Of a stretch of 42,574 nt of DNA, positions 2,606 through 42,574 are shown piece by piece. The DNA lies in IMG/VR virus record IMGVR_UViG_2675903468_000002, positions 1-42,574 of that record; one strand, given 5' to 3'. The stretch is from a virus (Duplodnaviria > Heunggongvirae > Uroviricota > Caudoviricetes). Position 1 is the first letter of the stretch; every line of letters begins with the position of its first letter. The notes under the pieces are model-generated. The model was not told the DNA's origin and did not search any database. It saw only the letters and a list, made by a program, of their open reading frames with translations. A program made the position numbers and the translations under genes.

Positions 2606-6007
<3,402 letters not shown>

Positions 6008-6705: not shown

Positions 6706-7346
6706 TTGTCGGTGTACCTCTCTCGTTTACTCAGTTGTTCAGGAATATGGTGCAGCAGCTCGCCGTCACCACAGTAAATGGCAGCATGATTCGGCACCGA
6801 TGAACCAAAGCTGCACAGCAGCACGTCGCCAGGCTGCGCCTCTGTCAGTGCGACACGGTAAAAACCCGTTGCCTCCATATTGTCAAGATAGAGATTCTGA
6901 CCGTGACGCCACCAGTCATCCTCGCGATGAAAATCCGGCATCTCAATCCCCGCCAGATGATAAGCATCCCGGAACAGCGTGTAACAGTCCGTCACCCCGT
7001 GCTCAAAGCGACGCCCGGTGAGATGCGGCACACAGCGGAACTTGTGAATCGCCCCCCGGCAGACCAGCCACCACGGCAAATCACTCTGCACCTGCAGCCG
7101 CCGGTCAGCCTCACTCAGCCAGGGCAGACCACCGGGATGACTGTGGACCAGTGCCACAATCTCACCCTGCATCTCTGCCTGCAGCCAGTCCTCCGGAGCC
7201 ATCCGGAAATAACCCTCCGGCTCACCGGAAATATTCATGCAGGGAAAATATCTTTCCCCCTCCGGCGTGCTTACCACGAAGCCGCACGACTCCGCTGGCG
7301 CACATCGCCGGGCGTGCGCCAGAATCGCTGATTCAGTCTCTGTCAT
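6603..7346 (-). CDS. K: Tail tip assembly protein K (JAB/MPN plus NlpC/P60-like)
   Basis: Lambda gpK-like sequence (HSHPGG...SEADRRLQ motif). Start placed at ATG 7346, 5 nt after the L stop; the ORF track's longer ORF to 7421 would overlap L. Confidence 0.8.
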   Translation of the reverse strand: MTETESAILAHARRCAPAESCGFVVSTPEGERYFPCMNISGEPEGYFRMAPEDWLQAEMQGEIVALVHSHPGGLPWLSEADRRLQVQSDLPWWLVCRGAIHKFRCVPHLTGRRFEHGVTDCYTLFRDAYHLAGIEMPDFHREDDWWRHGQNLYLDNMEATGFYRVALTEAQPGDVLLCSFGSSVPNHAAIYCGDGELLHHIPEQLSKRERYTDKWQRRTHSLWRHRAWHASAFTGICNDLAAASTFV

Positions 7347-19557: not shown

Positions 19558-21477
19558 TTATCCTCCACTCAGAGCAGCCGCGATTTCTTCAATAGTCATT
19601 TCATCGTCGTCCTGTTCATCTCTTCTGGCGCGGGCCAGTGCATCCAGATCCAGTTGCCACCGCTGAACGGAAATGCGCAGCGCTGCATAGGCATACACCA
19701 GACAGTCCAGAGCTTCATTACGCCGTTTTCTGGCATCCCACTGGAGTTTCACCCGCCCGTTCACAACTTTTTCAACCAGCTCTTCTGCCACGAGTTGTTT
19801 AGCTTCAACATCAGAAAAAATGTCCGGGTTATCCGGAAAACGGAAGGTATACGGTGCGACTTCACTGGCAGATACCACCGGCAGGGCAAAACGCGCATAC
19901 AGCATTTCCTTGACGGTATCGGAACCCACCTCACACAAAAACACCCCACGCTGGTTTCGCTTTTTTGGCATGGTGATCACCGGCTTGCCGTACACCGACG
20001 CCCCTTTGATGGGGAGCACAAAAAAAGTGCCGTGTTTTCTGGATCGCTGATACACAATGTCCTGGTCAATACCACCGGTATCCCAGCAGACGCGGGAAAT
20101 GGAAATTTCAGTGCCATCTGCATGACGGTATTTTTTCCGGATCACGGCATCAACGCGTTTAAGGGTGTCCTCATCTTCCGGTCTCCCCATGATGATCTGC
20201 TTGTCAATCAGAAAAGCTTCTTCGCCAGGAGCCCAGCCCCAGACATAAATCTCATAACGGTTTTTCTGAGAGTCGATCCCTGCGGTCAGGTAAACCACCC
20301 GCAGGGGAACCTGCGCATCATAGTGGCAGACTTTTTCCAGCAATAACTCAAAGCTCAGTTTTTCTGCCACAGCCTCTTCATAAGGCTCCCCCAGCGTGGT
20401 GTTAATGAACGTCTTGACGCCATTCGGATCCTTCAGTGCATCAAGCCAGTCATAAACAATCTGTACCCAGGTGGTGAACGGGCTGTATGCCGTCCAGATG
20501 TGGTACGAGATTGAGCGCGGTGGCGGGATTTCCTCATCACCGGCGCTGTAAAATGTCAGACCGTCACGCGTCCACATCCCGGTATTGTCACAAATCCACC
20601 GCCCGTCGGTCTGGTCAAGTTCCGACTGACGGATCGCGCAGCCATTATGTTCACACAGGTAATACACCGTCTCCGGCTTGCCCTTCTCCCATTTCAGGCC
20701 AAAGGTTGTCGCATCATCGCCAAACTTCAGATACTGGGCTTCACCACAATGAGGGCATGGCACATAAAACCGCATAAAATGTGCAGATTCGTTCGCGGCT
20801 TTTTCAATCTGGCAAAAACCTTTAATTTTGGGCGTTGAGCCGCGTATGGATTTAGGCCATACCGAACCTTCGATACGCTTATCGCCAAGCAGAGTTGGTG
20901 AACCTTCTTTTTCCACATCCGGTTCAAACGAGGAGAGTTCGTCATAGCAGACCACATCCACAGATTTTTCACGGTAGTTTTTGGCAGCAGCTCCGCCCAG
21001 ACACCAGAATCCCACACCGGAGGAGAAACGTTTCAGGGTAAGCGTGTTGTCCCGATGTTTTCTGCCAAACCACGGAGCCAGCTCCAGTAATACAGGAACG
21101 TCTCTTATCGTTGGTTCGACATGGGATTTCATAAAATCTTCTGCCGCAGAATCTGTCGGCTGAAAAAGCAGGCTGTTACGGGATTTGTGTTCAATAAAAT
21201 AAGCCTCCACCCCCAACAGCATTTTGGTGTAACCAACACGCGCCGATTTAATCAGATTAACGGTGCGGATCCGGTCATTCCCCATGCTGTTCATGATGGC
21301 AACCTGAAACGGCAGTGTTTCCCATTGCCCGGGAGTATATGAAGACTCTTTTGGCAGATAATAATGCTGATCAGCCCACTGAACTGTCGTCAGTGGTACC
21401 GGAATATTGAGAGATACAAGCCCTGTTGCTATCGCACCGGCTGCATTAGCTGCCTTCTGTGCGTCTGAAATCATCAA
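19558..21477 (-). CDS. A: Terminase large subunit A
   Basis: 639 aa; [39 protein letters not shown] and the rest match lambda gpA along the whole length. Confidence 0.95.
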
Positions 21478-21994
21478 TCCACCCGCCTACGTTCTCACCA
21501 GCTTTAGCTGCAACGTTGGAGGCTTTTGCGATTTCAGTTTTCACCACATCAAGGTGTGACGGTGAAATATCCGGATATTTACGCTGTAATGTCAGCGGCA
21601 CACGTACAAGTATCCCCGAAATCTCCTGTGCCACACGTTGCAGAATGAAGGTAAACAATTCCGTTTCCAGTACCAGCCCTTCTTCGCGGGCATTTTTCAG
21701 TTCCTGTGCATCAGCCTGTGCTTTTGTGAGTCGGTAGCGCTCATAGTCAATGGTGCCGGGTTGTAAATCTGATTCCGCAGCCGCACGCAAATCCTCGGTC
21801 TCTTTGCGGAGTTTTTCGTTTTCAATATCGGCTTCGCGCTGCGCATACCACTGAATTGCCATGGCGGTATCAAATACAGATTCAACCCCCTTACTACCAC
21901 CAGAGACACAAGAGAGCCCCTGAGACTGCCAGCGTTCAATCGTTCGTGGATCCACGTTGAAAATTTCCGCGAGCTTCTTTTTATTAACCTTCAT
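21446..21994 (-). CDS. Nu1: Terminase small subunit Nu1
   Basis: Start [26 protein letters not shown]; strongly similar to lambda Nu1 MEVNKKQLADIFGASIRTIQNWQEQG, including the ADIENEKLR and [27 protein letters not shown] blocks. Confidence 0.9.
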
Positions 21995-22017
21995 AAAACA
22001 TTTCCATATCAAATGCA

Positions 22018-22200
22018 GGGTCCGACATGGAAGTGCTCAAAAACGTCTTTTTCGGGCACTTTCATGTCGGACCTTTTACGGATGTGATTGATGAAAAAAC
22101 AATGAGTTATACACGAGAAGTACCGACACGCTTTTTCCCGAAAAATTTTCATAAATAGCGAAAATCCGCGCCGCTGCCGCCCCGTGGCAGGCCACCCCAC
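22018..22200 (-). other. cos site (cosN plus cosB-like region) of lambda type
   Basis: Minus strand reads CTGCCACG-GGGCGGCAGCGG-CGCGGATTTTCGCTATTTATGAAAATTTTTCGG, versus recalled lambda TTACG-GGGCGGCGACCT-CGCGGGTTTTCGCTATTTATGAAAATTTTCCGG; an 18-bp inverted repeat lies at 22018-22073. Confidence 0.65.
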
Positions 22201-22859
22201 CGGAAGGACCCGCACAAATGAGAGCGTTTATCATTAACATTTACAGATAAGATGACGTACATCATTGAAACGCCATTCAGCCATATACCGGCAGCATTCG
22301 TAGTTGCACTCCGTAACTCTGCGACTAAGGTTAAAAACATGGCCCTCTTTTGCCACCGGCAAATCTTCAATGGATTTCCCCTGCCGGTTTTTTATTTTCG
22401 TCGATGCATAACATTGCATTTACATCAATAGCGGCTATTGTCATTAGTATGTTGCATCAATGCATGGGTGGTATTGGCGGTCTTCGCCGGCCGGTTCTGT
22501 GTAGCTGCTCCCTGTGACCGGTTTTTTATTTCTCACATTACAGCAGCCCCTTAGAGTGAAGGGCTGCTGTAATGCCTGTTACTCACGAATCAAACGAGCA
22601 TGCTGACCACTCATTTCAATGCGTAAGTATTGTGGCTTGCCGTCAATCAACGCGGTGGTTAACTTGTCACCTGTAGGTTTCCACATAATTTTCTCCTGTT
22701 TTAATGCCCCTTGCCGCCAGGCAGTTGATCAAAGTTCATCTTGATTCGGCAAGATTTAGAATGAATAAGATAAAATTGGCACACGCAGCAGAATTTCATG
22801 CTTTCCGGACGCCGGCGCATCCTTCATTTTTCAGCAAAATATTCTGCCATTTCAGTCGT

Positions 22860-23042
22860 TCAGTTATGCATACACTGTCGGACACCATTGACAATTTCAC
22901 AGACCTGAGAGGCAGCATCCAAAAGCTGACGCGCCCTATCCAGGCTGACGCATCCCGACAATAAAAAAGGCACCAGTATCGCTACCAGTGCCCATTTCGC
23001 CGCCGTTCGCGGCATTCTGTGTGTCCAGTGTTTTCGCGTCAT
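22860..23042 (-). CDS. Small putative lipoprotein (function unknown; possible lysis-associated or cargo gene)
   Basis: Candidate start MTRKHW (or MPRTAAK at 23015); classic lipoprotein signal KWALVAILVPFLLSGC followed by a ~29-aa mature part with two Cys; weak RBS. Confidence 0.4.
   Translation of the reverse strand: MTRKHWTHRMPRTAAKWALVAILVPFLLSGCVSLDRARQLLDAASQVCEIVNGVRQCMHN
22960..22992 (-). terminator. Terminator-like hairpin embedded in the lipoprotein signal-peptide coding region
   Basis: Minus strand GGCACUGGUA-GCGA-UACUGGUGCC (10-bp stem with two G-U pairs, GNRA-type loop) followed by UUUUUUAUUG. Confidence 0.45.
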
Positions 23043-23180
23043 ATCACCACTCACGATTTCAGAGCAACAATCAACTTTGCCATCCCATACAGCATCGGAG
23101 ACACGGCGATGCCAACCGCCACCCACTTAATGGCAAAAGCCACCGCCCGGATAAGGCAGAGATTCGCCGGATTTTCTGTC

Positions 23181-23333
23181 TTATCTACAAACATATGCTA
23201 TCGCTGCAACCGCGAAACCAATTGCCCCGATCATTGCCGATAATGCAAGAATAATTCCGGCAATATTTGCTGCTTTAGGTGTCATACTGCCCCCTATACT
23301 CAGAAAGGTTTTATTGTTATCCTTTACTTGCAT
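23181..23333 (-). CDS. Small single-pass membrane protein (~50 aa), function unknown
   Basis: MQVKDNNKTFLSIGGSMTPKAANIAGIILALSAMIGAIGFAVAAIAYVCR; GGAGA RBS 6 nt upstream; below the ORF-track length cutoff. Confidence 0.4.
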   Translation of the reverse strand: MQVKDNNKTFLSIGGSMTPKAANIAGIILALSAMIGAIGFAVAAIAYVCR

Positions 23334-23379
23334 GAATTATCTCCATGTCTGATATGCGTTTCTGATTTTGCCAAAATAC

Positions 23380-23418
23380 AACCCCGGACTGTTCCAGCAG
23401 CCGGGGTTTTGTTTTTTG
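23380..23418. terminator. Hairpin with flanking T-runs between the endolysin and the small membrane gene
   Basis: AACCCCGG-13 nt-CCGGGGTT followed by TTGTTTTTTG on plus strand; minus-strand reading gives a weaker GUAUUUUGG tract. Confidence 0.45.
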
Positions 23419-23510
23419 CCACCTGGCACTATTGCCCGAGCCTGCACCCATCGTAGCCCCAGAAAAGAGCCTGCATGAGTTGAGGGTGTTCAGCACTTCA
23501 GTGTCAGTTT

Positions 23511-24056
23511 TTAAACCACCACGCGCTCTTTCATCCAGCCATAGACAAACGACTCATTGGCCTCGCGTTTCTCTGCCAGCTCCAGATAACGCTCGCCCTG
23601 CGTACAGTTCAGGGCTTTCACCAGTACCAGTTCACCATCCCTGCTGCGATTTTTCAGATATGCCCGTAATGCATTAAGAGTACGCGGCCCGATGCGTCCA
23701 TCAGCATCCATATCCGGATAGAGTTTCCCGCGCAGGTTGAAAACGTTCAGCCAGCGCTGAAGCATTCTGGACGCCACAGTTGGCCCCATGTTCACGCCCG
23801 TATCGCACAACTCTGCGGCAATATCAGGAGACAGGTCCTCAACCTGGTCGAATCGTGGTCCGTACCAGTAGTCCGCCTCGAGTATTTCCAGCGCCTGCCC
23901 ACGCGTCAGGTCACGCATATCGCCCTGATAACCGTGTGCACGGGCAACTTTTTCAGTGATGCCCCATTTAGTCGGACCACCTTTATCATCCGGGTGATTG
24001 ACGTAACCGCCCTCTTTTCCCAGAATTTCGTCAAAAATTTCATCTTTCGACTTCAT
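23511..24056 (-). CDS. Endolysin, glycoside hydrolase family 108-like with peptidoglycan-binding C-terminus
   Basis: Start MKSKDEIFDEILGKEGGYVNHPDDKGGPTKWGIT is the characteristic GH108 N-terminus; sits directly downstream of the holin-like genes. The ORF-track start at 24077 is a TTG. Confidence 0.75.
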   Translation of the reverse strand: MKSKDEIFDEILGKEGGYVNHPDDKGGPTKWGITEKVARAHGYQGDMRDLTRGQALEILEADYWYGPRFDQVEDLSPDIAAELCDTGVNMGPTVASRMLQRWLNVFNLRGKLYPDMDADGRIGPRTLNALRAYLKNRSRDGELVLVKALNCTQGERYLELAEKREANESFVYGWMKERVVV

Positions 24057-24057
24057 A

Positions 24058-24336
24058 TCAGCGCCTTCGTAATACAAGGATTTTTGATACGTTCCCGCGT
24101 GCTCGTATCACCAGCACGCAGAACACCAGGTTAATCAGGACGACCAGCCAGTTACCGGGTGGAAAGCGACCACACAGATAACAAAGCGGCGCAAAGGCAT
24201 AAAGCAGCATCAGCAGCCAGGCCAGCCACGACATCAGCGGTTTATGTCTCGACTCACCACGACGATAAAAAAAGAGCGTCAGCACGATAACCGTGCTTAA
24301 CACCACATTCAGTAATCCGGGAAGGTTACTTAACAT
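24058..24336 (-). CDS. Membrane protein with ~3 TM segments between holin and endolysin (possible second holin or antiholin)
   Basis: 92 aa, hydrophobic (LLNVVLSTVIVLTLFF, LAWLLMLLYAFAPLCYL, LVVLINLVFCVLVI); overlaps both neighbours. Confidence 0.45.
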   Translation of the reverse strand: MLSNLPGLLNVVLSTVIVLTLFFYRRGESRHKPLMSWLAWLLMLLYAFAPLCYLCGRFPPGNWLVVLINLVFCVLVIRARGNVSKILVLRRR

Positions 24337-24715
24337 TACCGCCTCCCCCCCGCAGACGGGAGAACAGCCCGGATACCAGCGATGCGATATCCTGCTGGTG
24401 GATGAATGAGAGAATCTTCACCGACACCACCGATACCAGTACCGCGCAAAGCGCGTCGAGAGATGTGCTGTGGAGATTCAGTTTTTCAACCAGGTAAGAC
24501 GCCATCACATCCGCCCCCAGCACGCCAACAATGAACGACACCAGAAAATGCGCTGCCACACGCCAGACAGAAATCTGCTGTGGTATCGTGGCCACAAACA
24601 GCGCCCCTGCGAATGCACCAAACACAATCCCGAAATCCGTTCCGGTAAACAGCCCGAATACCGTCGCCCCACCGAGCGCCGCAGCCGTGCCGGAACCGGA
24701 TAAGGGTTCAGACAT
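24326..24715 (-). CDS. Putative holin
   Basis: Start MSEPLSGSG with AGGAGA RBS; several Gly/Ala-rich TM helices; immediately upstream of the lysis membrane protein and endolysin. Confidence 0.55.
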   Translation of the reverse strand: MSEPLSGSGTAAALGGATVFGLFTGTDFGIVFGAFAGALFVATIPQQISVWRVAAHFLVSFIVGVLGADVMASYLVEKLNLHSTSLDALCAVLVSVVSVKILSFIHQQDIASLVSGLFSRLRGGGGNVK

Positions 24716-24951
24716 ACTTTTTCTCCTGTCAATAAAAAGGGCCACCAGCGGCCCGTAAAAAACACCCTGTCAAAGGTACCCGCAGATGCCTTTTGTTTGG
24801 TGTTATTCATATTTGTGCAGTAAAGGCCAGAGAACGACCATCACCATCGCCACCAGCACGCCATCAGCCAGCACCGACATCAGCCGTCCGGTAAAATCCA
24901 CTGCCACTACCAGAAACAGCAGGATGGCAGCCAGCACAAGGCGCGCACTTT

Positions 24952-25377
24952 TCACAGGTACTGCTCCAGCGGCAACTGCAGCGCCTGCGCAATTTTCTTG
25001 AGCTGTGCTTCTTCATCCGGACCAATGCCATCCTGGTCTGCAATATCCAGACACAGGCACAGCACATCAACCGCTTCGGCGGTTCCTGCCACATCAGCCA
25101 GTTCTCGCAAAGCCTGAGCATTCGCACTACGAGGCGATGCTTCATAACGGGCGCGGATATTCGCGCTCATCTGGGCAATCTCACCGGAGAACGGCGCAAA
25201 GGCAGGAAGTGTTGCAATGGTTTTCTCCAGTACCGCAATTTCTTTCGCGTCACAGGTGTCGTCAGCGTATGCAATGGAATACGCGCCCCAGACGGTCGCC
25301 TCCACCGCGTCGCGGTTCTCCATTTTCTTCACTTCAGTAATAGCCTTACGGGTTTTCTTTTTGAAAATACCAAACAT
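24952..25377 (-). CDS. TerB-like (tellurite-resistance TerB fold) protein
   Basis: Start MFGIFKKKTRKAITEVKKMENRDAVEA; helical acidic protein resembling the TerB domain family, assigned from recalled sequence features only. Confidence 0.4.
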   Translation of the reverse strand: MFGIFKKKTRKAITEVKKMENRDAVEATVWGAYSIAYADDTCDAKEIAVLEKTIATLPAFAPFSGEIAQMSANIRARYEASPRSANAQALRELADVAGTAEAVDVLCLCLDIADQDGIGPDEEAQLKKIAQALQLPLEQYL

Positions 25378-25576
25378 CGTGACTTTTCCTTTTAGTGGGT
25401 GAGCCTCGCCCCGGGATGAGCAGCCCACAGAGAAAGTCACACTGACCATCCCGTAAGCTCCCCCCCCTGAAAGGCTCTGTGGTTTTTTGATGTGCGCCGG
25501 GCGTGGCGCAGATATGAAAAAGGCCACGCACGTGCGCAGCCTGATAATTTTCTGAATCAGCGGAGTGTCAGCTGGT

Positions 25577-26104
25577 TTACCCTTTCACTTCTGAAAGGGA
25601 TTTTTTGCCAAACGTCACTTCATTCATTGACATAAGTATGCTGTCTTTAATGTATTCGCACACTTCATTAATTTTTGCGTTGGTATCCACATGCGAAAAT
25701 GTCCTGGCCTGATAACCATCAACCGAAATCGTCATGTTGTCGCCATCAAGTAACAGAATACTCACTGTAATATTCACACTTACAGACTGGCGGGGATCAT
25801 CATCAACAACCGTATATAAATTAAAAGTAACCCCATCCTGAAAATCTACCTGCAAATCCTCCGGTTTCTCACAACAACTATCATGAGAAAGATAAACATA
25901 GGGATGGGAGTTACCGTCAATATCCAGCCATCGTGGTTTCGGCAATGCCAGTGAGTCTTCATAGGTCTTGACCAGCCTTTTTGCCATATCCCGCAGTCGC
26001 TGGATGTACTCCTGTCTGGCCTCCTGAATTTCAGCCTGCTTTTCCCGAATGTCTGCATATGTGATCACAGTCTCAATTCTCCTGTATACAGAAAAATAAA
26101 CCAT
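25577..26104 (-). CDS. Hypothetical protein (function unknown)
   Basis: ORF whose upstream part (26105-26200) contains a terminator, so start set at ATG 26104; alternative GTG at 26068 has an AGGAGA RBS. Confidence 0.5.
   Translation of the reverse strand: MVYFSVYRRIETVITYADIREKQAEIQEARQEYIQRLRDMAKRLVKTYEDSLALPKPRWLDIDGNSHPYVYLSHDSCCEKPEDLQVDFQDGVTFNLYTVVDDDPRQSVSVNITVSILLLDGDNMTISVDGYQARTFSHVDTNAKINEVCEYIKDSILMSMNEVTFGKKSLSEVKG
25579..25606 (+). terminator. Strong plus-strand intrinsic terminator overlapping the 3' end of a minus-strand gene
   Basis: CCCTTTCA-CTTC-TGAAAGGG followed by ATTTTTTG on plus strand; no U-tract in the minus orientation. Confidence 0.5.
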
Positions 26105-26163
26105 AATAATAGCCAACCGGGAAAAGATGAAAAATGCCATAACAGAACAGGCATTGCGCACGG

Positions 26164-26191
26164 ATAAAAAAATGCCCGTCATGAGACGGGC
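26164..26191 (-). terminator. Intrinsic terminator (minus strand)
   Basis: GCCCGTC-TCAT-GACGGGC followed by ATTTTTTTATCC on minus strand. Confidence 0.6.
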
Positions 26192-26748
26192 CCAAAGCAT
26201 TCATCGTATAAGAATTAGACAGCGTTTAATTGTATGGTTACTACCAGAATGATTCGTCAGCCTGCAACGTAATTCTGACGAATCACAGACCCCGAAACAG
26301 GCAGCGACTCATTCTGATAAAAACCATCCGATGATACACAACGTTAACAATGTAAAAAACAGCACCGAAACTGTAATCAGTCAGATATTACAGAATGAAG
26401 AACGACAAAGGCGCTTGCAAAACCTGTTCTCCGCGAAACTCGCCAGTGCTGAAACGATATGCCTCATTTGTTTACCAGTGCGGGTAGCAGAAATTACCCT
26501 CACACATAAAATGCTGACTTCCGGAATCACACTGCTGACCGGTTATTACTGAATCAACAAACTGATCACCAGGAAGTCAGCACTGACCTTTCCGGTGGTA
26601 TTAACACCCTGTGAACACAAAACGACCACCTTTAGGTCGTCACAAATACTAACAATGATTGTGTGGGCATCAAAAATATATTTGGTGTTCAGTTTTAAAT
26701 ATGTGTATACATCTGTATCAGAAATATACAACTTATATCATCACTGAA

Positions 26749-28143: not shown

Positions 28144-28650
28144 GTCTTTTTCCCTTTTCCGGTTAACGTGACATACCAATAACTCTTGTCGAAAAAGCCA
28201 GCAAGCTGAAAGACCGGTATTCGTAACCACCAGCACGTTTAACGTCCTGTGCCGTTTTTCGGGTACAAAAAACAGCCCGACGGCGGTTTTAAGGAAGGAG
28301 TCGAAGCAACCACTCTTAACATCATAATTGAATTTTTACGTACGTAAACCACAAATACGCCACTCAAATGTTAATGCTCTATAACAAAACCAAACATGCG
28401 AATAACACATATTACACCAAATACATCATTGTTATTTTTCAATGAAAAATGAGTAAATAATGTATTTCATTAATTAAATTCCGCATTACACAAAAATATC
28501 GACAAATTACACCAACGCGCATAAATGAGATCTTGATCATATTATCAATCACTAAATTAAACTTGCCTCTTGAAATAACCACATTGATTAGATGAATATT
28601 TATCGCGCAGTGACATCATTTTTTAAAATAGTTCAAAAAAAGGGTTCGTG

Positions 28651-29760
28651 ATGAAAAAATTAACGGTGGCAATTTCTGCTGTGGCTGCATCAGTATCAGT
28701 ACTGATGGCGATGTCTGCTCAGGCAGCAGAGATTTATAATAAAGACAGCAACAAGTTGGATCTGTACGGAAAAGTTAATGCTAAGCACTACTTCTCCTCT
28801 AACGATGCAAATGATGGCGACACAACTTATGCTCGTCTGGGTTTCAAAGGCGAAACTCAGATCAACGATCAACTGACTGGTTTCGGTCAGTGGGAATATG
28901 AATTCAAAGGAAACCGTACTGAAGAACAGGGAGCAGCCAAAGATAAAACCCGTCTTGCATTTGCAGGGCTTAAATTCGGTGACTACGGCTCCGTCGATTA
29001 CGGTCGTAACTACGGTGTAGCATACGATATCGGTGCATGGACTGACGTTCTGCCAGAATTCGGTGGAGATACTTGGACCCAAACAGATGTATTCATGACT
29101 GGTCGCACCACTGGTGTTGCAACTTATCGTAACAACGACTTCTTTGGTCTGGTTGATGGTCTGAATTTTGCTGCACAGTACCAGGGTAAGAATAATCATG
29201 ATCGTAGTAGCTTAGATAACTACACCAAAGGCAATGGCGATGGTTTTGGTTTCTCTGCGACCTATGAATACGAAGGTTTCGGCATTGGTGCAACGTATGC
29301 GAAATCTGATCGTACCGACACTCAAGTCAAATTGGGTAAACTTCTCCCAGGAGTATTTGCTTCCGGCGAAAATGCAGAAGTCTGGGCTGCAGGTCTGAAA
29401 TACGACGCAAACAACGTTTATCTGGCAACAACCTATTCAGAAACCCAGAATATGACTAAATTCGCAGATTACTTTGTGGCTAATAAAGCACAAAACTTCG
29501 AAGCTGTTGCACAATATCAGTTCGATTTCGGTCTGCGTCCGTCTGTTGCTTATCTGCAATCAAAAGGTAAAGATCTTGGCATTTTTGGTGACCAAGATTT
29601 AGTCAAATATGTTGATGTTGGCGCAACTTATTATTTCAACAAAAATATGTCTACATTCGTTGATTACAAAATCAACCTGCTTGACAAAAATGACTTTACT
29701 AAAGCTCTTGGTGTAAACACTGACGATATCGTTGCTGTAGGTATGGTATACCAGTTCTAA
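28651..29760 (+). CDS. nmpC: Outer membrane porin, NmpC/Lc/OmpC family (phage-encoded)
   Basis: [25 protein letters not shown] signal peptide then [24 protein letters not shown]...ending VGMVYQF; trimeric-porin hallmarks; closely matches recalled DLP12 NmpC; opposite strand to Q and lysis genes as in DLP12. Confidence 0.95.
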
Positions 29761-29940: not shown

Positions 29941-30324
29941 TTAATTAAGCTTAGTAACATCAATATCCATCTCTAAGCAAATGTCTAATGCCATTAACAT
30001 ACCTTCGATTATTCCCTCTGCTTTCTGTAACCTTTTCCCGATATACCCATCAGAGCAATTATGCTTCCGCGCCAGCATCATAAACGTCATCCCACCAACA
30101 TAATAATCCACCAGCAAATCATGTAAGCCATTGTTGCTCTTTTTCAGACAGGCCATACATCCACAAATGATCATCGCGTCATCGTCACAGCATTGCGGAC
30201 GAGATCTTACTTTTGAAGGAATTAATCCCTTAAAACCGGCGGCAACGGACGACCAGGTCACATCTTCATGATTATTAGCCGCCCACGCTCCCCAACGCTC
30301 AAGAACCATCTGAATATCACGCAT
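29941..30324 (-). CDS. Q: Late-gene antiterminator Q (phage 82 / DLP12 QuuD type)
   Basis: 127 aa, [24 protein letters not shown]...[18 protein letters not shown]; matches recalled QuuD; located just upstream of the porin, as quuD-nmpC in DLP12. Confidence 0.85.
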
Positions 30325-36511: not shown

Positions 36512-37201
36512 ATGAAGAACGTCAAAAACACGGAAAATCGAATAGCCGCGATGCTGAAAGCAAAAGGATGGACTCAGGCTCAACTGGCCCGCAAGTTAGG
36601 TGTGAGTGCGCAATCAGTGCAGTACTGGACAACAGGAAAAACATTTCCACGGAGTGATAAGCTCGCGCATTTATCAGAGATTAGCGGTTATCCACAATCC
36701 TGGTTCTTAGGTGAAGACTCCTCACCAACCTTTTCCTCGCAAGAGAAACACCAGACAAGAACAGATAGCGTCGTGTTTAATGTCCTTGATGTTGAGTTTA
36801 GTTGCGGTGATGGAACTCATGTCCGTGGTGACTTGATAGATGTAGTGCGCTCAATAGAACTTGATCCTGAATATGCCCGACGTCTTGTTGGAAATCGGGC
36901 ATTCAAAAATATAGAAATAGGTAACGCCAGAGGAGACAGTATGGCTCCCACAATCTCACCTGGCGACCTTCTTTTTCTTGATAAGACAGTAACTTATTTT
37001 GATGGCGATGGTATTTATGCATTTTGTTTTGATGGAGAATGCTACGTGAAAAGGCTTCAAAAAATTGGAAGCAAAATCATGGTGTTATCTGATAACCCCA
37101 ATTATCAACCATGGAGCATCGAAAAAGAGGGGTTAGCTCTGCTTTATATCCAGTCTAAAGTGATCTCATCAGTACCATTCAACATAAACAGATTTGGTTA
37201 G
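36512..37201 (+). CDS. cI: CI-type prophage repressor (HTH plus LexA-like S24 autopeptidase domain)
   Basis: 229 aa; HTH GWTQAQLARKLGVSAQSVQYWTTGK; C-terminal S24 domain with GDSMAPTISPGDLLFLDK and downstream Lys. Confidence 0.85.
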   Translation: MKNVKNTENRIAAMLKAKGWTQAQLARKLGVSAQSVQYWTTGKTFPRSDKLAHLSEISGYPQSWFLGEDSSPTFSSQEKHQTRTDSVVFNVLDVEFSCGDGTHVRGDLIDVVRSIELDPEYARRLVGNRAFKNIEIGNARGDSMAPTISPGDLLFLDKTVTYFDGDGIYAFCFDGECYVKRLQKIGSKIMVLSDNPNYQPWSIEKEGLALLYIQSKVISSVPFNINRFG

Positions 37202-39143: not shown

Positions 39144-39332
39144 ATGAGACTGTATTTCACAATAGTAATTTTACTGGCAATTATCGCATGCATTTACGGA
39201 TTACTCGTTCCGTTCCTTATATCCATGAAGGATACGATAGCAGTTATTTCTGGCTTTGCACTGGCGTTTCTGACCCCGCCCTGCATTTATGCCATTTACA
39301 AGGGTCTTTCTTTCGCTAAGGATAAAAGATGA
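39144..39332 (+). CDS. Small two-TM membrane protein coupled to the SPFH gene
   Basis: 62 aa, MRLYFTIVILLAIIACIYGLLVPFLISM...; stop overlaps the SPFH start (ATGA). Confidence 0.5.
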   Translation: MRLYFTIVILLAIIACIYGLLVPFLISMKDTIAVISGFALAFLTPPCIYAIYKGLSFAKDKR

Positions 39333-40156
39333 AAAAAATTATTTTTGCTTTAGCCATTGTTCTGCCGACTATTGGCCTTGTCGGTTGCGATCGCGTTGAA
39401 CCAGGTAATGTTGGCATCAAGGTAAATAAACTGGGCGACGACAAAGGCGTCGGTGAGGTGGTCGGTGTTGGTCGCTACTGGACTGGCTGGAATACTGAAG
39501 TTTATATCTTCCCCACCTTCAAACAAATGAAGACCTACGATGAACCGTTCAGTTTCCAGATGAGTGACGGTACAACCATCGGCTATCACATTGGCGTGGC
39601 CTACAAAGTTGATCCATCCAAAGTTACCACGGTGTTTCAGACCTACCGCAAAGGCGTGGATGACATTACCGACACTGACCTGCGCCAGAAGATCGCCGAC
39701 GCACTCAACCGACTGGCCAGCAAAATGACCACTGACAAATTTATCGACGGCGGCAAGTCTGAGCTGCTGGATGAAGCTCTTAAAGACATTCAGGCAGAGA
39801 TGACACCTATCGGTATTCAGGTAATGAGCCTCTCATATGTGGGTAAGCCGGAGTACCCGCCAACCGTTATCGACAGCATTAATGCCAAAGTCACGGCAAA
39901 CCAGAAAACCCTGCAGCGCGAGCAGGAAGTCAAGCAACGTGAAGCGGAGGCCAACATGCTACGTGCGGAAGCTGCCGGACAGGCTGATGCCATTCGAACA
40001 AAAGCCCAGGCAGAAGCCGATGCCATTCGTTTACGCGGCGAAGCTCTACGCCAGAACCCAGGCGTCATGGAGCTGGAAGCCATCAACAAGTGGAACGGTA
40101 CACTGCCGCAATACATGACCAGTGGTGCCAATACACCATTTATCCAGATTAAATAA
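39329..40156 (+). CDS. SPFH/band-7 (prohibitin/HflKC-like) domain lipoprotein
   Basis: 275 aa; lipobox LVGC after signal peptide; SPFH-like core followed by Ala/Glu/Arg-rich coiled coil (REQEVKQREAEANMLRAEAAGQADAIRTKAQAEADAIRLRGEA). Confidence 0.7.
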   Translation: MKKIIFALAIVLPTIGLVGCDRVEPGNVGIKVNKLGDDKGVGEVVGVGRYWTGWNTEVYIFPTFKQMKTYDEPFSFQMSDGTTIGYHIGVAYKVDPSKVTTVFQTYRKGVDDITDTDLRQKIADALNRLASKMTTDKFIDGGKSELLDEALKDIQAEMTPIGIQVMSLSYVGKPEYPPTVIDSINAKVTANQKTLQREQEVKQREAEANMLRAEAAGQADAIRTKAQAEADAIRLRGEALRQNPGVMELEAINKWNGTLPQYMTSGANTPFIQIK

Positions 40157-41287: not shown

Positions 41288-42574
41288 ATGAGTAATACAT
41301 CATACCCAACAGGCGTTGAAAATCATGGCGGATCACTCCGCATATGGTTTCACTATAACGGCAAACGTGTCAGAGAAAACCTCGGTGTTCCTGACACCGC
41401 CAAAAACCGGAAAATCGCAGGTGACCTCCGCACTTCCGTTTGTTTTGCAATCAGAATGGGGAGTTTCGACTATGCAGCACAGTTCCCTGAGTCCCCTAAC
41501 CTGAAACACTTTGGTCTGGGGAAAAGAGAGATAACCATTAAAGCACTTTCGGAAAGATGGCTTGAACTGAAGAAAATAGAGATTTGTGCAAATGCACTTA
41601 ACCGTTACCAGTCAGTAATTAAAAACATGTTGCCAATGTTAGGTGAAAAAAGACTGGTTTCATCTGTAACAAAAGAGGATTTGCTTTTCGTAAGGAGAGA
41701 TCTGTTGACCGGTTATCAAAAGCTTTCTAACGGAAAAATTTCTTCCATAAAAGGACGCTCAGTGGTCACAGTAAACTACTATATGACAACCATAGCTGGA
41801 ATGTTTCAATTTGCAACAGATAATGGTTATACATCAGGAAATCCATTTAACGGTCTGACACCATTAAAAAAGTCCAAGATAGAACCAGATCCCCTCACCC
41901 GTGACGAATTTATTCGTTTTATTGAGGCTTGCCGTCATCAACAAACAAAAAACCTGTGGATTATCGCTGTATACACGGGTATTCGTCACGGGGAGCTGGT
42001 ATCACTGGCCTGGGAAGATATAGACCTTAAAGCGAGGACTATAACCATCCGCCGGAATTATACAAAACTAGGCGAATTCACTCCACCAAAAACTGATGCT
42101 GGTACCGGAAGAACGATTCATCTAGTTCAACCAGCTATTGATGCTCTTAAAAGCCAAGCGGAAATGACCATGCTTGGAAAACAGCATTCTGTAGAGGTAA
42201 AGCAGAGGGAATATGGGAGAAGTACTGTGCATAAATGCACTTTTGTTTTTAGTCCTCAGGTAATAAAACAGCGGCAGTTTTCCGGACCGCACTATAAGGT
42301 TGACTCCATCAGGGAGTCATGGACAAGTATCTTAAAACGCGCAGGTCTGAGACACAGAAAATCGTATCAATCCAGGCATACCTATGCATGCTGGTCACTT
42401 GCCGCAGGAGCTAATCCTAGTTTTATCGCAAGCCAGATGGGCCACACAAACGCACAAATGGTATTCAATGTTTACGGAGCATGGATGAAAGACAACAATC
42501 ACGAACAAATAGAACTTCTTAACAGAAGACTATCTGAAAGTGTCCCATGCATGCCCCATAAGAAAGCGGGGTAA
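41288..42574 (+). CDS. int: Tyrosine-type site-specific integrase
   Basis: 428 aa; catalytic-domain motifs including GIRHGEL (Arg), HxxR-type RHTYACW and the tyrosine in VFNVYGAWM; stop codon is the last 3 nt of the window. Confidence 0.9.
   Translation: MSNTSYPTGVENHGGSLRIWFHYNGKRVRENLGVPDTAKNRKIAGDLRTSVCFAIRMGSFDYAAQFPESPNLKHFGLGKREITIKALSERWLELKKIEICANALNRYQSVIKNMLPMLGEKRLVSSVTKEDLLFVRRDLLTGYQKLSNGKISSIKGRSVVTVNYYMTTIAGMFQFATDNGYTSGNPFNGLTPLKKSKIEPDPLTRDEFIRFIEACRHQQTKNLWIIAVYTGIRHGELVSLAWEDIDLKARTITIRRNYTKLGEFTPPKTDAGTGRTIHLVQPAIDALKSQAEMTMLGKQHSVEVKQREYGRSTVHKCTFVFSPQVIKQRQFSGPHYKVDSIRESWTSILKRAGLRHRKSYQSRHTYACWSLAAGANPSFIASQMGHTNAQMVFNVYGAWMKDNNHEQIELLNRRLSESVPCMPHKKAG

What the first reader, a model, noticed from the sequence alone, without database searches (positions are those of the whole stretch)
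22860..24715. Lysis cassette without a recognisable Rz/Rz1 spanin pair
The holin-like gene, a second three-TM membrane protein and a GH108-type endolysin are followed not by an i-spanin (~150 aa, N-terminal TM) with embedded o-spanin, but by a 50-aa single-TM protein and a ~60-aa lipoprotein with a textbook signal (KWALVAILVPFLLSGC). No minus-strand ORF of at least 60 aa other than the lipoprotein lies between the endolysin and cos. Either outer-membrane disruption uses a minimal two-piece system or another mechanism, or these are cargo genes.
Basis: partly seen in the sequence, partly recalled or inferred. Interest (0 to 1): 0.55.

Follow-up and report, generated by a model that had tools for sequence, protein, structure and literature searches.

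The report
Mini-lipoprotein sits in the spanin slot
This prophage's lysis cassette has no Rz/Rz1 spanin pair; a conserved 60-codon outer-membrane lipoprotein gene starts exactly where Rz starts in related phages, so it is probably an untested, partner-less way of breaking the outer membrane.

Summary
On the minus strand lie a Phage_holin_8 gene, a Phage_holin_3_7 gene and a GH108/PG_binding_3 endolysin. No Rz/Rz1-like pair exists anywhere in the window.

In about 250 related loci:
- LIPO follows the endolysin, often 6-14 nt away or overlapping it. This holds across two endolysin folds, two holin types and several packaging and virion modules.
- LIPO starts at the same junction (GGTGGTGATATGA) where Rz starts in sister cassettes.
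- LIPO is under purifying selection (pN/pS 0.25).
- Intact LIPO never co-occurs with intact Rz/Rz1. Where Rz/Rz1 is present, LIPO carries stop codons.

ORF-A and ORF-B are optional. They also occur in canonical R-Rz cassettes and have no periplasmic domain, so they are not i-spanins.

Kongari et al. (2018) listed the phiP27 homologue as an "o-spanin". Its proposed i-spanin partner looks spurious.

Best reading (confidence about 0.5): LIPO is the cassette's outer-membrane-disrupting factor and works without a periplasm-spanning partner. No experiment has tested this. I rate it a new variant of a known kind, of moderate to high interest.

The parts
24326..24715 (-). Phage_holin_8 family membrane protein (129 aa from the ATG; the ORF extends to a GTG at 24745). 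It is the first gene of the lysis cassette.
   Evidence: Pfam PF16931 E 7e-22 and phrog_198 'holin' E 2e-41. PGAP-130 aa homologues 'putative holin'.
24058..24336 (-). Phage_holin_3_7 three-TM protein (92 aa). It overlaps the holin_8 gene by 11 nt.
   Evidence: Pfam PF05449 E 8e-21 and phrog_217 'holin' E 4e-35.
23511..24056 (-). Endolysin with a GH108 muramidase domain and a PG_binding_3 domain (181 aa from the ATG). It has no signal or SAR sequence.
   Evidence: PF05838 E 1e-26, PF09374 E 1e-26 and phrog_315 E 3e-54. PGAP homologues are 181 aa.
23369..23421 (-). Stable hairpin with flanking A- and U-tracts (terminator-like), between the endolysin and ORF-A.
   Evidence: dG -25.4 kcal/mol, z -4.1 against shuffles; listed in the terminator scan. 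It would be read through if the late operon is Q-antiterminated (inference).
23181..23333 (-). ORF-A: a 50-aa protein with one Gly/Ala-rich TMD (residues about 22-48). It is an optional accessory gene and not a conserved partner of the lipoprotein.
   Evidence: phrog_12997 E 2e-8; GGAG 7 nt upstream of the ATG. It was not detected in the 83 related LIPO loci. It occurs with ORF-B47 both in a LIPO cassette (E. coli A19) and in an R...Rz cassette (F8111).
23051..23194 (-). Its ATG lies 11 nt upstream of the ORF-A stop, and its own stop is 8 nt before the LIPO start.
   Evidence: phrog_1115 E 3e-19, phrog_3246 and phrog_4493. The C-terminal 32 residues are identical to the 60-aa homologue in E. 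coli C5. Homologues lie directly upstream of LIPO or of Rz.
22860..23042 (-). LIPO: a 60-aa prolipoprotein with a 17-residue basic n-region, an h-region and the lipobox LLSG|C31. The mature form is 30 residues (CVSLDRARQLLDAASQVCEIVNGVRQCMHN), is predicted to be an amphipathic helix and has two conserved Cys. It occupies the Rz/Rz1 slot.
   Evidence: phrog_7528 full length, E 9e-36. pN/pS 0.25 with Cys31, Cys48 and Cys57 invariant. Junction identical to Rz starts. Synteny. AF2 predicts a helix over residues 12-59 with pLDDT 70. Hydrophobic moment (muH) 0.55, net charge 0.
22579..22686 (-). orf35: a 35-aa soluble ORF with a strong AGGAG Shine-Dalgarno sequence. It follows LIPO in most relatives. 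Its function is unknown and it is not a membrane protein.
   Evidence: phrog_8025 E 1e-21; present in 70 of 82 loci downstream of LIPO.
22535..22575 (-). Strong hairpin after orf35. It may mark the end of the lysis-region transcript or be a processing site.
   Evidence: dG -29.2 kcal/mol, z -5.6. It has no U-tract.
22172..22183 (-). cosN-like site (GGGCGGCAGCGG followed by ...TTTTCGCTATTTATGAAAATTTT), which bounds the region.
   Evidence: Read. The resemblance to lambda cosN/cosB is recalled from memory, so it is a lead and not a test. The Nu1 terminase gene begins downstream (PF07471 E 3e-83).

Best explanation
The cassette carries out three-step lysis in which the third step is done by a stand-alone mini-lipoprotein instead of a spanin complex.

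1. The two holin-family proteins permeabilise the inner membrane.
2. The signal-less GH108 muramidase escapes and degrades the murein.
3. LIPO weakens or ruptures the outer membrane once the murein is gone.

LIPO would be made as a 60-aa prolipoprotein, lipidated at Cys31, cut by signal peptidase II and sent by Lol to the inner leaflet of the outer membrane (Val at +2, Ser at +3). That leaves a 30-residue amphipathic helix with two Cys. It has no periplasm-spanning inner-membrane partner of the Rz kind.

ORF-A and ORF-B are optional small inner-membrane proteins that live in the endolysin-to-spanin gap of both cassette kinds. They may be lysis modulators.

Shown here: gene content, position, junction, linkage, selection and mutual exclusivity with Rz/Rz1. 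Inferred: lipidation, sorting, late expression and the outer-membrane-disrupting activity itself.
For: 1. Slot identity. The sequence ...GGTGGTGA(T/C)ATGA precedes the Rz start in GER2 and E. coli F8111 and precedes the LIPO start in this window, RM8082, C5, A19 and phiSTEC1575-Stx2k. The first codons (M-N/S/T-R) are shared. In 8 loci a reverse-oriented bor-like lipoprotein gene (identified by recalled resemblance to lambda Bor) follows LIPO, as bor follows Rz in lambda.

2. Operon-tight linkage to the endolysin across mosaics.
- 35 of 83 loci have the M15 endolysin stop, 14 nt containing AGGTG, then the LIPO ATG.
- Yersinia kristensenii: GH108 and LIPO overlap by 4 nt.
- Lelliottia: a different holin (phrog_126), GH108, then LIPO overlapping by 20 nt.
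- Enterobacter cancerogenus: Phage_holin_3_1, M15_4, 6 nt, then LIPO.
- Downstream modules differ: Nu1, HNH+Terminase_4, DUF1441+GpA, Terminase_2/6, and both siphovirus and myovirus parts.

3. It is a real, constrained gene. pN/pS is 0.25 over 53 unique CDS and all three Cys are invariant. It is present in 352 of 5426 complete E. coli genomes.

4. Mutual exclusivity. Across 243 surveyed loci, none has intact LIPO together with a near-full Rz. The three Rz/Rz1-bearing loci with a LIPO remnant (GER2, L185, L252) carry 4 in-frame stops. By contrast, 84 of 86 LIPO-only loci in that survey are intact.

5. No alternative component. No other conserved lipoprotein or N-terminal-TMD ORF occurs in the window or in the loci.

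6. phiP27 carries only this cassette. Its record carries a cos-site feature, so it appears to make virions. That it is inducible is my own knowledge and was not checked here.

7. Pinto et al. 2021 (PMC8136144) found the Rz i-spanin in 277 of 279 Stx phages and described the two cluster-C Stx2e phages as having a metallopeptidase endolysin and a classical holin. That these two are the Rz-less ones, and that one of them is phiP27, is my inference; the search term 'P27' had no hit in that paper.
Against: - No experiment exists for any family member.
- Thirty residues cannot bridge the periplasm, so the mechanism must differ from membrane fusion by spanins and is unknown.
- The mature peptide is not cationic (net charge 0 to -1), unlike the one known spanin-independent disruptor.
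- Some cassettes of this type have neither LIPO nor Rz/Rz1 (Raoultella L096, SerU-LTIIb L092). The LT-II prophages carry a frameshifted LIPO. The gene is therefore dispensable for prophage persistence, and possibly for lysis under some conditions.
- The surveyed loci are related by descent, so the counts are not independent events.
Confidence: 0.5

Rival explanations
1. Minimal two-component spanin. LIPO is an o-spanin whose inner-membrane partner is one of the neighbouring small TM proteins (ORF-B, ORF-A, or in phiP27 the 64-aa ORF proposed by Kongari et al. 2018). Together they bridge the envelope and fuse the membranes like Rz/Rz1.
For: - Kongari et al. list phiP27 as a 'separated' two-component spanin with 32 + 30 periplasmic residues.
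- ORF-B abuts LIPO with a 1-8 nt gap.
- The RM8082-type ORF-B is followed by LIPO in 79 of 80 loci.
- LIPO has conserved periplasmic Cys, as many spanins do.
Against: - ORF-B is absent from 40 of 83 LIPO loci, including phiP27 and the commonest form in which the M15 endolysin is followed after 14 nt by LIPO.
- Both ORF-B types and ORF-A also precede canonical Rz/Rz1.
- Their single hydrophobic segment reaches the C-terminus, leaving 0-3 residues beyond it. The positively charged N-terminal tail predicts an N-in topology, so there is no periplasmic domain.
- The phiP27 'i-spanin' starts with TTG, has no PHROG hit, and lies antisense to a 90-aa ORF that matches phrog_36812 over its full length. 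That segment is present in only 2 of 89 loci.
Confidence: 0.12
2. LIPO is not a lysis protein. It is a late-expressed accessory outer-membrane lipoprotein, for example a receptor mask or superinfection-exclusion factor like T5 Llp or Cor, or an envelope-conversion factor like Bor. These phages would simply lack a dedicated outer-membrane disruptor.
For: - Small phage lipoproteins with disulfides that act on outer-membrane receptors are known (Llp and Cor; my own knowledge).
- About 13% of phages in the 2018 catalogue (91 of 677) have no identifiable spanin.
- Some sister cassettes lack LIPO and LIPO is broken in the LT-II prophages.
- No family library gives it a function.
Against: - It travels with the holin-endolysin module across siphovirus-type and myovirus-type virion modules and at least four packaging systems, not with tail or receptor-binding genes.
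- It starts exactly where Rz starts.
- No promoter-like site was found on its strand in 22000-25000, and in most relatives there is no room for one.
- It is pseudogenised where Rz/Rz1 is present and intact where it is absent. Redundancy predicts this pattern; an exclusion function does not.
Confidence: 0.22
3. One gene, two products. The conserved signal peptide, or the uncleaved prolipoprotein, stays in the inner membrane and acts as the second component. It would pair with the mature outer-membrane form through the helix and Cys residues, or act like the stable signal peptide of colicin lysis proteins, possibly with activation of host phospholipase PldA.
For: - The signal peptide is better conserved than the mature domain (about 80% against 35% identity between subfamilies).
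- The n-region motif R-[KR]-H-W-T-H-R-x-P-R is conserved.
- Mature size and lipobox resemble colicin lysis proteins (my own knowledge).
Against: - pS is also lower in the signal-coding part, so recombination or nucleotide-level constraint may explain part of the conservation.
- Some copies appear to start at Met10 and lack the motif.
- There is no sequence similarity to Lysis_col or any Pfam family at E up to 10.
- Two 30-residue helices are still short for the periplasm.
Confidence: 0.08
4. LIPO is a decaying remnant or a chance ORF with no function.
For: The ORF is short, some copies are pseudogenes, and many records do not annotate it.
Against: pN/pS is 0.25 and the lipobox and Cys residues are invariant across 53 unique CDS. 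The gene is conserved at 50-57% protein identity in Enterobacter, Lelliottia and Citrobacter, and at 67-70% in Yersinia, with the same synteny.
Confidence: 0.03

Closest known systems
The 'o-spanin' of phage phiP27 in the spanin catalogue of Kongari et al. 2018 (BMC Bioinformatics 19:326; singleton family, 'separated' architecture)
   Same: Direct homologue, 83% identical. It has the same position after the endolysin, the same 30-residue helical mature part (83% helix by Jpred in their Table S2; helix in AF2 here), and it was already flagged as the shortest spanin set known.
   Different: - Their call starts at Met10 (51 aa). In 7 of 53 unique CDS Met10 is replaced, and PGAP aa.
- Their i-spanin partner is not conserved and looks spurious.
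- The assignment was purely computational.
- Here the gene is shown to be a family present in 352 of 5426 complete E. coli genomes, which stands alone in the Rz slot.
Lambda Rz1 and other o-spanins of two-component spanins
   Same: A small outer-membrane lipoprotein (60-aa precursor, like Rz1) encoded at the distal end of the lysis cassette. The lipobox is not followed by Asp at +2, and periplasmic Cys residues are conserved.
   Different: - There is no sequence similarity.
- It has no prolines and is predicted helical rather than Pro-rich and unstructured.
- It is not embedded in or overlapped with an i-spanin gene, and no i-spanin exists.
- Thirty mature residues cannot reach an inner-membrane partner across an intact periplasm.
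Unimolecular spanin (T1 gp11)
   Same: A single gene with an N-terminal lipoprotein signal that does the outer-membrane step alone.
   Different: LIPO has no C-terminal TMD to anchor in the inner membrane. It is about a quarter of the size and is helical rather than beta-rich.
Disruptin (phiKT gp28), the spanin-independent outer-membrane disruptor (bioRxiv 10.1101/515445)
   Same: A short amphipathic helical peptide in a spanin-less phage that is proposed to act directly on the outer membrane.
   Different: gp28 is strongly cationic and has no signal sequence or lipid anchor. LIPO is neutral to slightly acidic and lipid-anchored.
Colicin lysis proteins (bacteriocin release proteins) and entericidin B
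   Same: Lipoproteins with a mature part of about 27-33 residues whose expression permeabilises the envelope. In the bacteriocin release proteins the signal peptide is itself functional (my own knowledge). Size and amphipathicity are comparable.
   Different: There is no sequence relationship (no Pfam hit at E up to 10). The genetic context is a phage lysis cassette rather than a colicin operon or a chromosomal toxin-antidote pair. Dependence on PldA is unknown.
Lcc6 of Shewanella phage LambdaSo (bioRxiv 10.1101/2024.01.23.576932)
   Same: It is a precedent that a small (65-aa) single-TM protein encoded near lysis genes can be required for lysis at the holin step. This is a possible analogy for ORF-A and ORF-B.
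   Different: LambdaSo does have a nested Rz/Rz1 pair.

Membership tests
Two-component spanin (Rz/Rz1 type) | o-spanin: a small outer-membrane lipoprotein (lipobox, no Asp at +2) encoded in the lysis cassette | tested here: met
   Lipobox LLSG|C31 with Val +2 and Ser +3. The lipobox Cys is invariant in 53 unique CDS. The gene follows the endolysin.
Two-component spanin (Rz/Rz1 type) | i-spanin: a type II inner-membrane protein with an N-terminal TMD and a sizeable, usually coiled-coil, periplasmic domain, whose gene embeds, overlaps or adjoins the o-spanin gene | tested here: not met
   No such ORF in the window or conserved in 83 LIPO loci. ORF-A and ORF-B have no periplasmic domain. The phiP27 candidate is not conserved and lies antisense to a real gene.
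Two-component spanin (Rz/Rz1 type) | Combined periplasmic length sufficient to connect the inner and outer membranes | tested here: not met
   Only 30 mature residues. The catalogue range is 62-300 residues, and its minimum of 62 is the doubtful phiP27 pair.
Two-component spanin (Rz/Rz1 type) | Sequence membership in the Rz (PF03245 Phage_lysis) or Rz1 families | tested here: not met
   No Pfam, NCBIfam or PADLOC hit. tblastn with Rz and Rz1 gives E >= 0.19.
Two-component spanin (Rz/Rz1 type) | Functional: required for outer-membrane disruption, and complements lambda Rz-am Rz1-am | not testable with these tools
   Needs genetics. Only positional equivalence to Rz and mutual exclusivity with Rz/Rz1 are shown.
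Unimolecular spanin (T1 gp11 type) | An N-terminal lipoprotein signal AND a C-terminal transmembrane domain in one polypeptide | tested here: not met
   The signal is present. The C-terminus (…VRQCMHN) is polar, and the only hydrophobic segment is the signal h-region, residues 14-32.
Disruptin (phiKT gp28 type) | A strongly cationic amphipathic peptide without a signal sequence | tested here: not met
   It is amphipathic (hydrophobic moment, muH, 0.53-0.55), but its net charge is 0 to -1 and it has a lipoprotein signal.
Colicin lysis protein / bacteriocin release protein (Pfam Lysis_col) | Sequence membership and a location in a colicin operon | tested here: not met
   No Pfam hit even at E <= 10. 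The context is a phage lysis cassette. Only size and lipobox resemble this family.
PHROG family phrog_7528 (unknown function) | Full-length profile match | tested here: met
   E 9e-36, residues 1-60 against profile positions 1-60 of 60. The family is tiny: 25 representatives at 50% identity among 1.84 billion proteins.
Moron / cargo gene | An autonomous unit with its own promoter and terminator, inserted between modules and not tied to one functional module | tested here: not met
   The only promoter-like site in 22000-25000 is on the opposite strand. In relatives LIPO lies 6-14 nt after, or overlaps, the endolysin gene. It is always linked to a holin-endolysin module.

The most novel reading that the evidence does not exclude
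A 30-residue lipid-anchored amphipathic helix is by itself sufficient for the outer-membrane step of phage lysis. That would make it a third class of outer-membrane disruptor beside spanins and cationic disruptins. Its unusually conserved signal peptide, or its uncleaved precursor, may supply an inner-membrane-acting second product from the same 60-codon gene.
Probability: 0.35. Interest if true: 0.75.

Novelty: new variant of a known kind. Interest (0 to 1): 0.58.

Why it matters
Outer-membrane disruption is the least understood step of phage lysis. Only spanins and one cationic peptide have experimental support, and about 13% of phages of Gram-negative hosts in the 2018 catalogue (91 of 677) have no identified factor.

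This cassette is not rare. LIPO is present in 6.5% of complete E. coli genomes, and the cassette occurs in phages that carry Stx2e, Stx2k and LT-II toxins. Release of toxin and virions from those lysogens depends on how it works.

If a 30-residue lipoprotein can replace Rz/Rz1, three things follow:
- It would be the smallest known outer-membrane-lysis factor.
- It would give a clean test of whether bridging the periplasm is really needed.
- It would be a compact tool for programmed lysis.

The work also corrects a catalogue entry. The phiP27 'two-component spanin', the shortest on record, very probably has no i-spanin.

Tried and rejected
- Search for a hidden Rz/Rz1. tblastn with lambda, GER2 and PhiR12_2 Rz and with lambda Rz1 against the window found nothing. 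A lipobox scan of all frames and starts found only LIPO and a Band_7 lipoprotein. A scan for ORFs with an N-terminal TMD found nothing credible. The 207-aa ORF at 25577-26200 looks like 'TMD + coiled coil' only from its longest start. Its PHROG profile begins at residue 45 and it is not conserved with the cassette, so I rejected it.
- Pfam (E up to 10), NCBIfam and PADLOC gave nothing for LIPO, ORF-A or ORF-B.
- ORF-A has no tblastn match in the phage collection.
- A profile search of 1.84 billion representatives found only 25 family members. All are 44-85 aa apart from frame-fusion artefacts and low-complexity hits, so no longer relatives exist that could reveal a lost domain.
- ORF-A as a frameshifted N-terminus of ORF-B was considered, because PGAP marks a 'frameshifted' gene in strain C5. 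That pseudogene turned out to be the unrelated p93 gene, and the ORF-A/ORF-B47 pair recurs intact elsewhere.
- The hairpin after the endolysin was considered as evidence for a separate transcription unit (a moron). I rejected it as decisive: most relatives have no such spacer, and late operons are antiterminated.
- A fold search with the AF2 model was not run, because a single helix gives meaningless matches.
- The original phiP27 paper (PMC127862) is not held, and the LT-II prophage literature search was uninformative.


Full report
WHAT IS THERE

The window is a complete lambdoid prophage transcribed mostly on the minus strand. It carries:
- integrase at 41288-42574 and a CI-like repressor at 36512-37201;
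- Q antiterminator at 29941-30324;
- Nu1 terminase at 21446-22012;
- a J-type tail tip at 2606-6004 and Lom at 1940-2539.

The lysis region reads, on the minus strand:
- Phage_holin_8 at 24326-24715;
- Phage_holin_3_7 at 24058-24336;
- a GH108 + PG_binding_3 endolysin at 23511-24056, with no signal or SAR sequence;
- a stable hairpin (dG -25 kcal/mol, z -4.1);
- ORF-A, 50 aa, one Gly/Ala-rich TMD, at 23181-23333;
- ORF-B, 47 aa, hydrophobic over most of its length, at 23051-23194.
- the lipoprotein LIPO at 22860-23042;
- a 35-aa soluble ORF at 22579-22686 and a second hairpin;
- a lambda-like cos site near 22172-22183 (the resemblance is recalled from memory).

IS A SPANIN HIDDEN SOMEWHERE?

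No.
- tblastn with three Rz proteins and lambda Rz1 finds nothing in the window (best E 0.19).
- A lipobox scan from every start codon in six frames finds only LIPO and an unrelated Band_7 lipoprotein at 39329-40156.
- No ORF combines an N-terminal TMD with a periplasmic domain in or near the cassette.
- ORF-A and ORF-B have a single hydrophobic stretch that runs to within 0-3 residues of the C-terminus, so they have no periplasmic domain.

There is a 61-aa ORF at 22234-22419 and two ORFs lie across cos. None of them is Rz-like.

WHAT THE LIPOPROTEIN IS

LIPO matches phrog_7528 (unknown function) end to end (E 9e-36). It matches nothing in Pfam, NCBIfam or PADLOC.

The family is small and restricted to Enterobacterales: E. 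coli, Salmonella, Citrobacter, Cronobacter, Enterobacter, Lelliottia and Yersinia. It has 25 representatives at 50% identity among 1.84 billion proteins, all of similar length apart from artefacts. It is nonetheless common: 352 of 5426 complete E. coli genomes carry it.

It is a real gene. Over 53 unique coding sequences pN/pS is 0.25, and the lipobox Cys31 plus Cys48 and Cys57 never change.

The mature product is 30 residues. It has no proline, a net charge of 0 to -1 and a hydrophobic moment of 0.55. AlphaFold predicts a helix with pLDDT 70. Val at +2 and Ser at +3 predict Lol sorting to the outer membrane, by the established +2 rule.

WHERE IT SITS: THE KEY EVIDENCE

I collected 83 loci found with LIPO as query, 160 loci found with the two ORF-B types as query, and a dozen distant contexts.

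(i) LIPO follows an endolysin wherever the contig is long enough to show the upstream region.
- In 35 of 83 loci the M15 endolysin stop is followed by 14 nt (TAACCAGGTGTGTT) and then the LIPO ATG.
- In Yersinia kristensenii the GH108 gene and LIPO overlap by 4 nt.
- In Lelliottia a different holin (phrog_126) precedes GH108, and LIPO overlaps GH108 by 20 nt.
- In Enterobacter cancerogenus the order is Phage_holin_3_1, M15_4, 6 nt, LIPO.
- Two endolysin folds, two holin types and at least four packaging modules (in siphovirus-like and myovirus-like genomes) all share LIPO at this position.

(ii) LIPO starts at the nucleotide where Rz starts in sister cassettes. The end of ORF-B plus ...GGTGGTGATATGA(A/G)CCG... 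is followed by Rz in phage GER2 and E. coli F8111. The same sequence is followed by LIPO in this window, RM8082, C5, A19 and phiSTEC1575-Stx2k. In eight loci a reverse-oriented bor-like gene follows LIPO, as bor follows Rz in lambda.

(iii) Intact LIPO and intact Rz/Rz1 never co-occur.
- Of 70 loci with a near-full-length Rz, two have a LIPO remnant, and it carries four in-frame stops, as in GER2.
- Of 86 LIPO-only loci in the same survey, 84 are intact.
- One locus (L007) has lambda-like Rz cut at codon 20 and fused into the holin_8 gene, leaving LIPO as the only candidate.

These counts are not independent events, because many loci are close relatives. The pattern is nevertheless what functional redundancy predicts.

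THE SMALL MEMBRANE PROTEINS

- ORF-A was not detected in any of the 83 LIPO-query loci. It recurs with the 47-aa ORF-B form in about 100 E. coli genomes, both in a LIPO cassette (strain A19) and between R and Rz (strain F8111).
- ORF-B has two types. The C5 type, to which the window's copy belongs, lies between R and Rz in 72 of 80 sampled loci. The RM8082 type lies before LIPO in 79 of 80.
- 40 of 83 LIPO loci have no ORF-B at all, and phiP27 is among them.

They are therefore optional occupants of the endolysin-to-spanin gap, not obligate partners. Their role is unknown. Lcc6 of LambdaSo shows that such small TM proteins can act at the holin step.

WHAT WAS ALREADY KNOWN

Kongari et al. 2018 listed phiP27 as having a 'separated' two-component spanin. 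It was a singleton family with the shortest periplasmic length in their set: 32 + 30 residues.
- Their o-spanin is the LIPO homologue (83% identical), called from Met10. In 7 of 53 unique CDS Met10 is replaced, so Met1 must be used there.
- Their i-spanin is a TTG-initiated 64-codon ORF with no PHROG match. It lies antisense to a 90-aa ORF that matches phrog_36812 over its full length, on a segment present in 2 of 89 loci. I regard it as spurious.

Pinto et al. 2021 found the Rz i-spanin family in 277 of 279 Stx phages. They described the two cluster-C Stx2e phages as having a metallopeptidase endolysin and a classical holin. I infer that these two are the Rz-less phages and that one of them is phiP27; the paper's text gave no hit for 'P27'.

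No experimental work on this lipoprotein was found.

HOW IT MOST LIKELY WORKS

Best model, confidence about 0.5:
1. The holins open the inner membrane.
2. The cytoplasmic muramidase removes the murein.
3. LIPO, a lipid-anchored amphipathic helix in the inner leaflet of the outer membrane, possibly oligomerised through its two Cys, destabilises the outer membrane once it is no longer supported by murein.

LIPO cannot work as a spanin in the strict sense, because 30 residues cannot bridge the periplasm and there is no inner-membrane subunit. It also differs from the cationic disruptin gp28, being neutral and lipidated. In size and anchoring it most resembles colicin lysis proteins, but it shares no sequence with them.

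Rivals:
- a two-piece system with ORF-B (0.12);
- a non-lytic late lipoprotein such as a receptor mask (0.22);
- a one-gene, two-product scheme that uses the conserved signal peptide or the precursor (0.08);
- a functionless remnant (0.03).

AN UNEXPLAINED FEATURE

The signal peptide is better conserved than the mature domain. Between subfamilies it is about 80% identical against about 35%. The 17-residue basic n-region carries an invariant H-x-x-H-R-x-P core. Synonymous divergence is also lower there, so recombination or nucleotide-level constraint may contribute.

CAVEATS

- Sister cassettes in Raoultella and in the partial SerU-LTIIb prophage record have neither LIPO nor Rz/Rz1.
- The LT-II prophages carry a frameshifted LIPO.
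- The gene is therefore not needed for prophage maintenance, and whether it is needed for lysis is untested.
- That phiP27 is an infectious phage rests on my own knowledge and on the cos-site feature in its record.

VERDICT

The 'two-piece' pairing is not supported, and 'cargo' is disfavoured for the lipoprotein. The lipoprotein is a conserved, selected component in the Rz slot of a widespread lysis cassette. It is a new variant of the outer-membrane step, previously catalogued only computationally and with a wrong partner. Interest 0.58.

Noticed in passing
window 22860-23042 (codons 1-31 against 32-60); alignment A3: The LIPO signal peptide, including a 17-residue basic n-region with the motif R-[KR]-H-W-T-H-R-x-P-R, is far better conserved between subfamilies than the mature domain (about 80% against 35% identity). 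Both pN and pS are lower in that part. This is unusual for a lipoprotein signal.
   Followed up: partly
L001 (phiP27, NC_003356) 2572-2760 and 2891-3085: The phiP27 record annotates L32 in the wrong frame across the unannotated LIPO gene. The published 'i-spanin' ORF of phiP27 lies antisense to a 90-aa ORF that matches phrog_36812 over its full length.
   Followed up: yes
L006 1784-1830, L091 about 3575-3640, L004 about 2840-2900: The Rz homologues that follow ORF-B in canonical cassettes carry a lipobox-like L-L-[LV]-[GA]-C inside their N-terminal TMD: GER2 has LLLGC, and F8111 and PhiR12_2 have LLVAC. Whether these i-spanins are lipid-modified, or are related to the origin of LIPO, is unknown.
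   Followed up: no
L098-L101 4902-6039 and about 6730-6900: In the LT-II enterotoxin prophages the toxin genes are inserted between the GH108 endolysin and p93-ORF-B-LIPO. LIPO there is inactivated by a frameshift after codon 11 in all four loci, and two of them also lack Cys57. L098 has an additional stop codon in the lipobox, and L099 and L101 have lost Cys57.
   Followed up: partly
window 28648-29760 (+): A prophage-borne general porin gene (Porin_1, E 8e-152). It lies on the opposite strand in a 40% GC island between Q and the DNA methylase.
   Followed up: no
window 39144-39332 (+) and 39329-40156 (+): A 62-aa membrane ORF overlaps the start of a 275-aa Band_7/SPFH lipoprotein (lipobox LVGC) in the early region. 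This may be a moron or a defence pair.
   Followed up: no
window 24803-24955 and 24952-25527 (-): TciB-like DUF3927 and TerB-family genes lie immediately upstream of the holins. They are conserved in that position in many relatives, including Cronobacter and Citrobacter prophages.
   Followed up: no
window 22579-22686 (-) and hairpin 22535-22575: A 35-aa soluble ORF (phrog_8025) with a strong Shine-Dalgarno sequence follows LIPO in 70 of 82 loci. In this window a -29 kcal/mol hairpin follows it. Its function is unknown.
   Followed up: partly
L007 5044-5338: A chimeric cassette in which the first 20 codons of a lambda-like Rz are fused to residue 59 of the holin_8 gene, downstream of a lambda-type R lysozyme. 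This shows recombination between the two cassette kinds.
   Followed up: partly
L094 6567-6770 (Cronobacter): 3' remnants of Rz and Rz1 lie about 1.8 kb downstream of a holin_8/holin_3_7/GH108 cassette, after a DUF6645 insertion. That copy has neither an intact spanin nor LIPO.
   Followed up: partly
window 25577-26200 (-): A 207-aa ORF (phrog_5091) looks like an N-terminal TMD plus a charged helix only if the longest start is used. The profile begins at residue 45, and the gene is not conserved with the cassette.
   Followed up: partly
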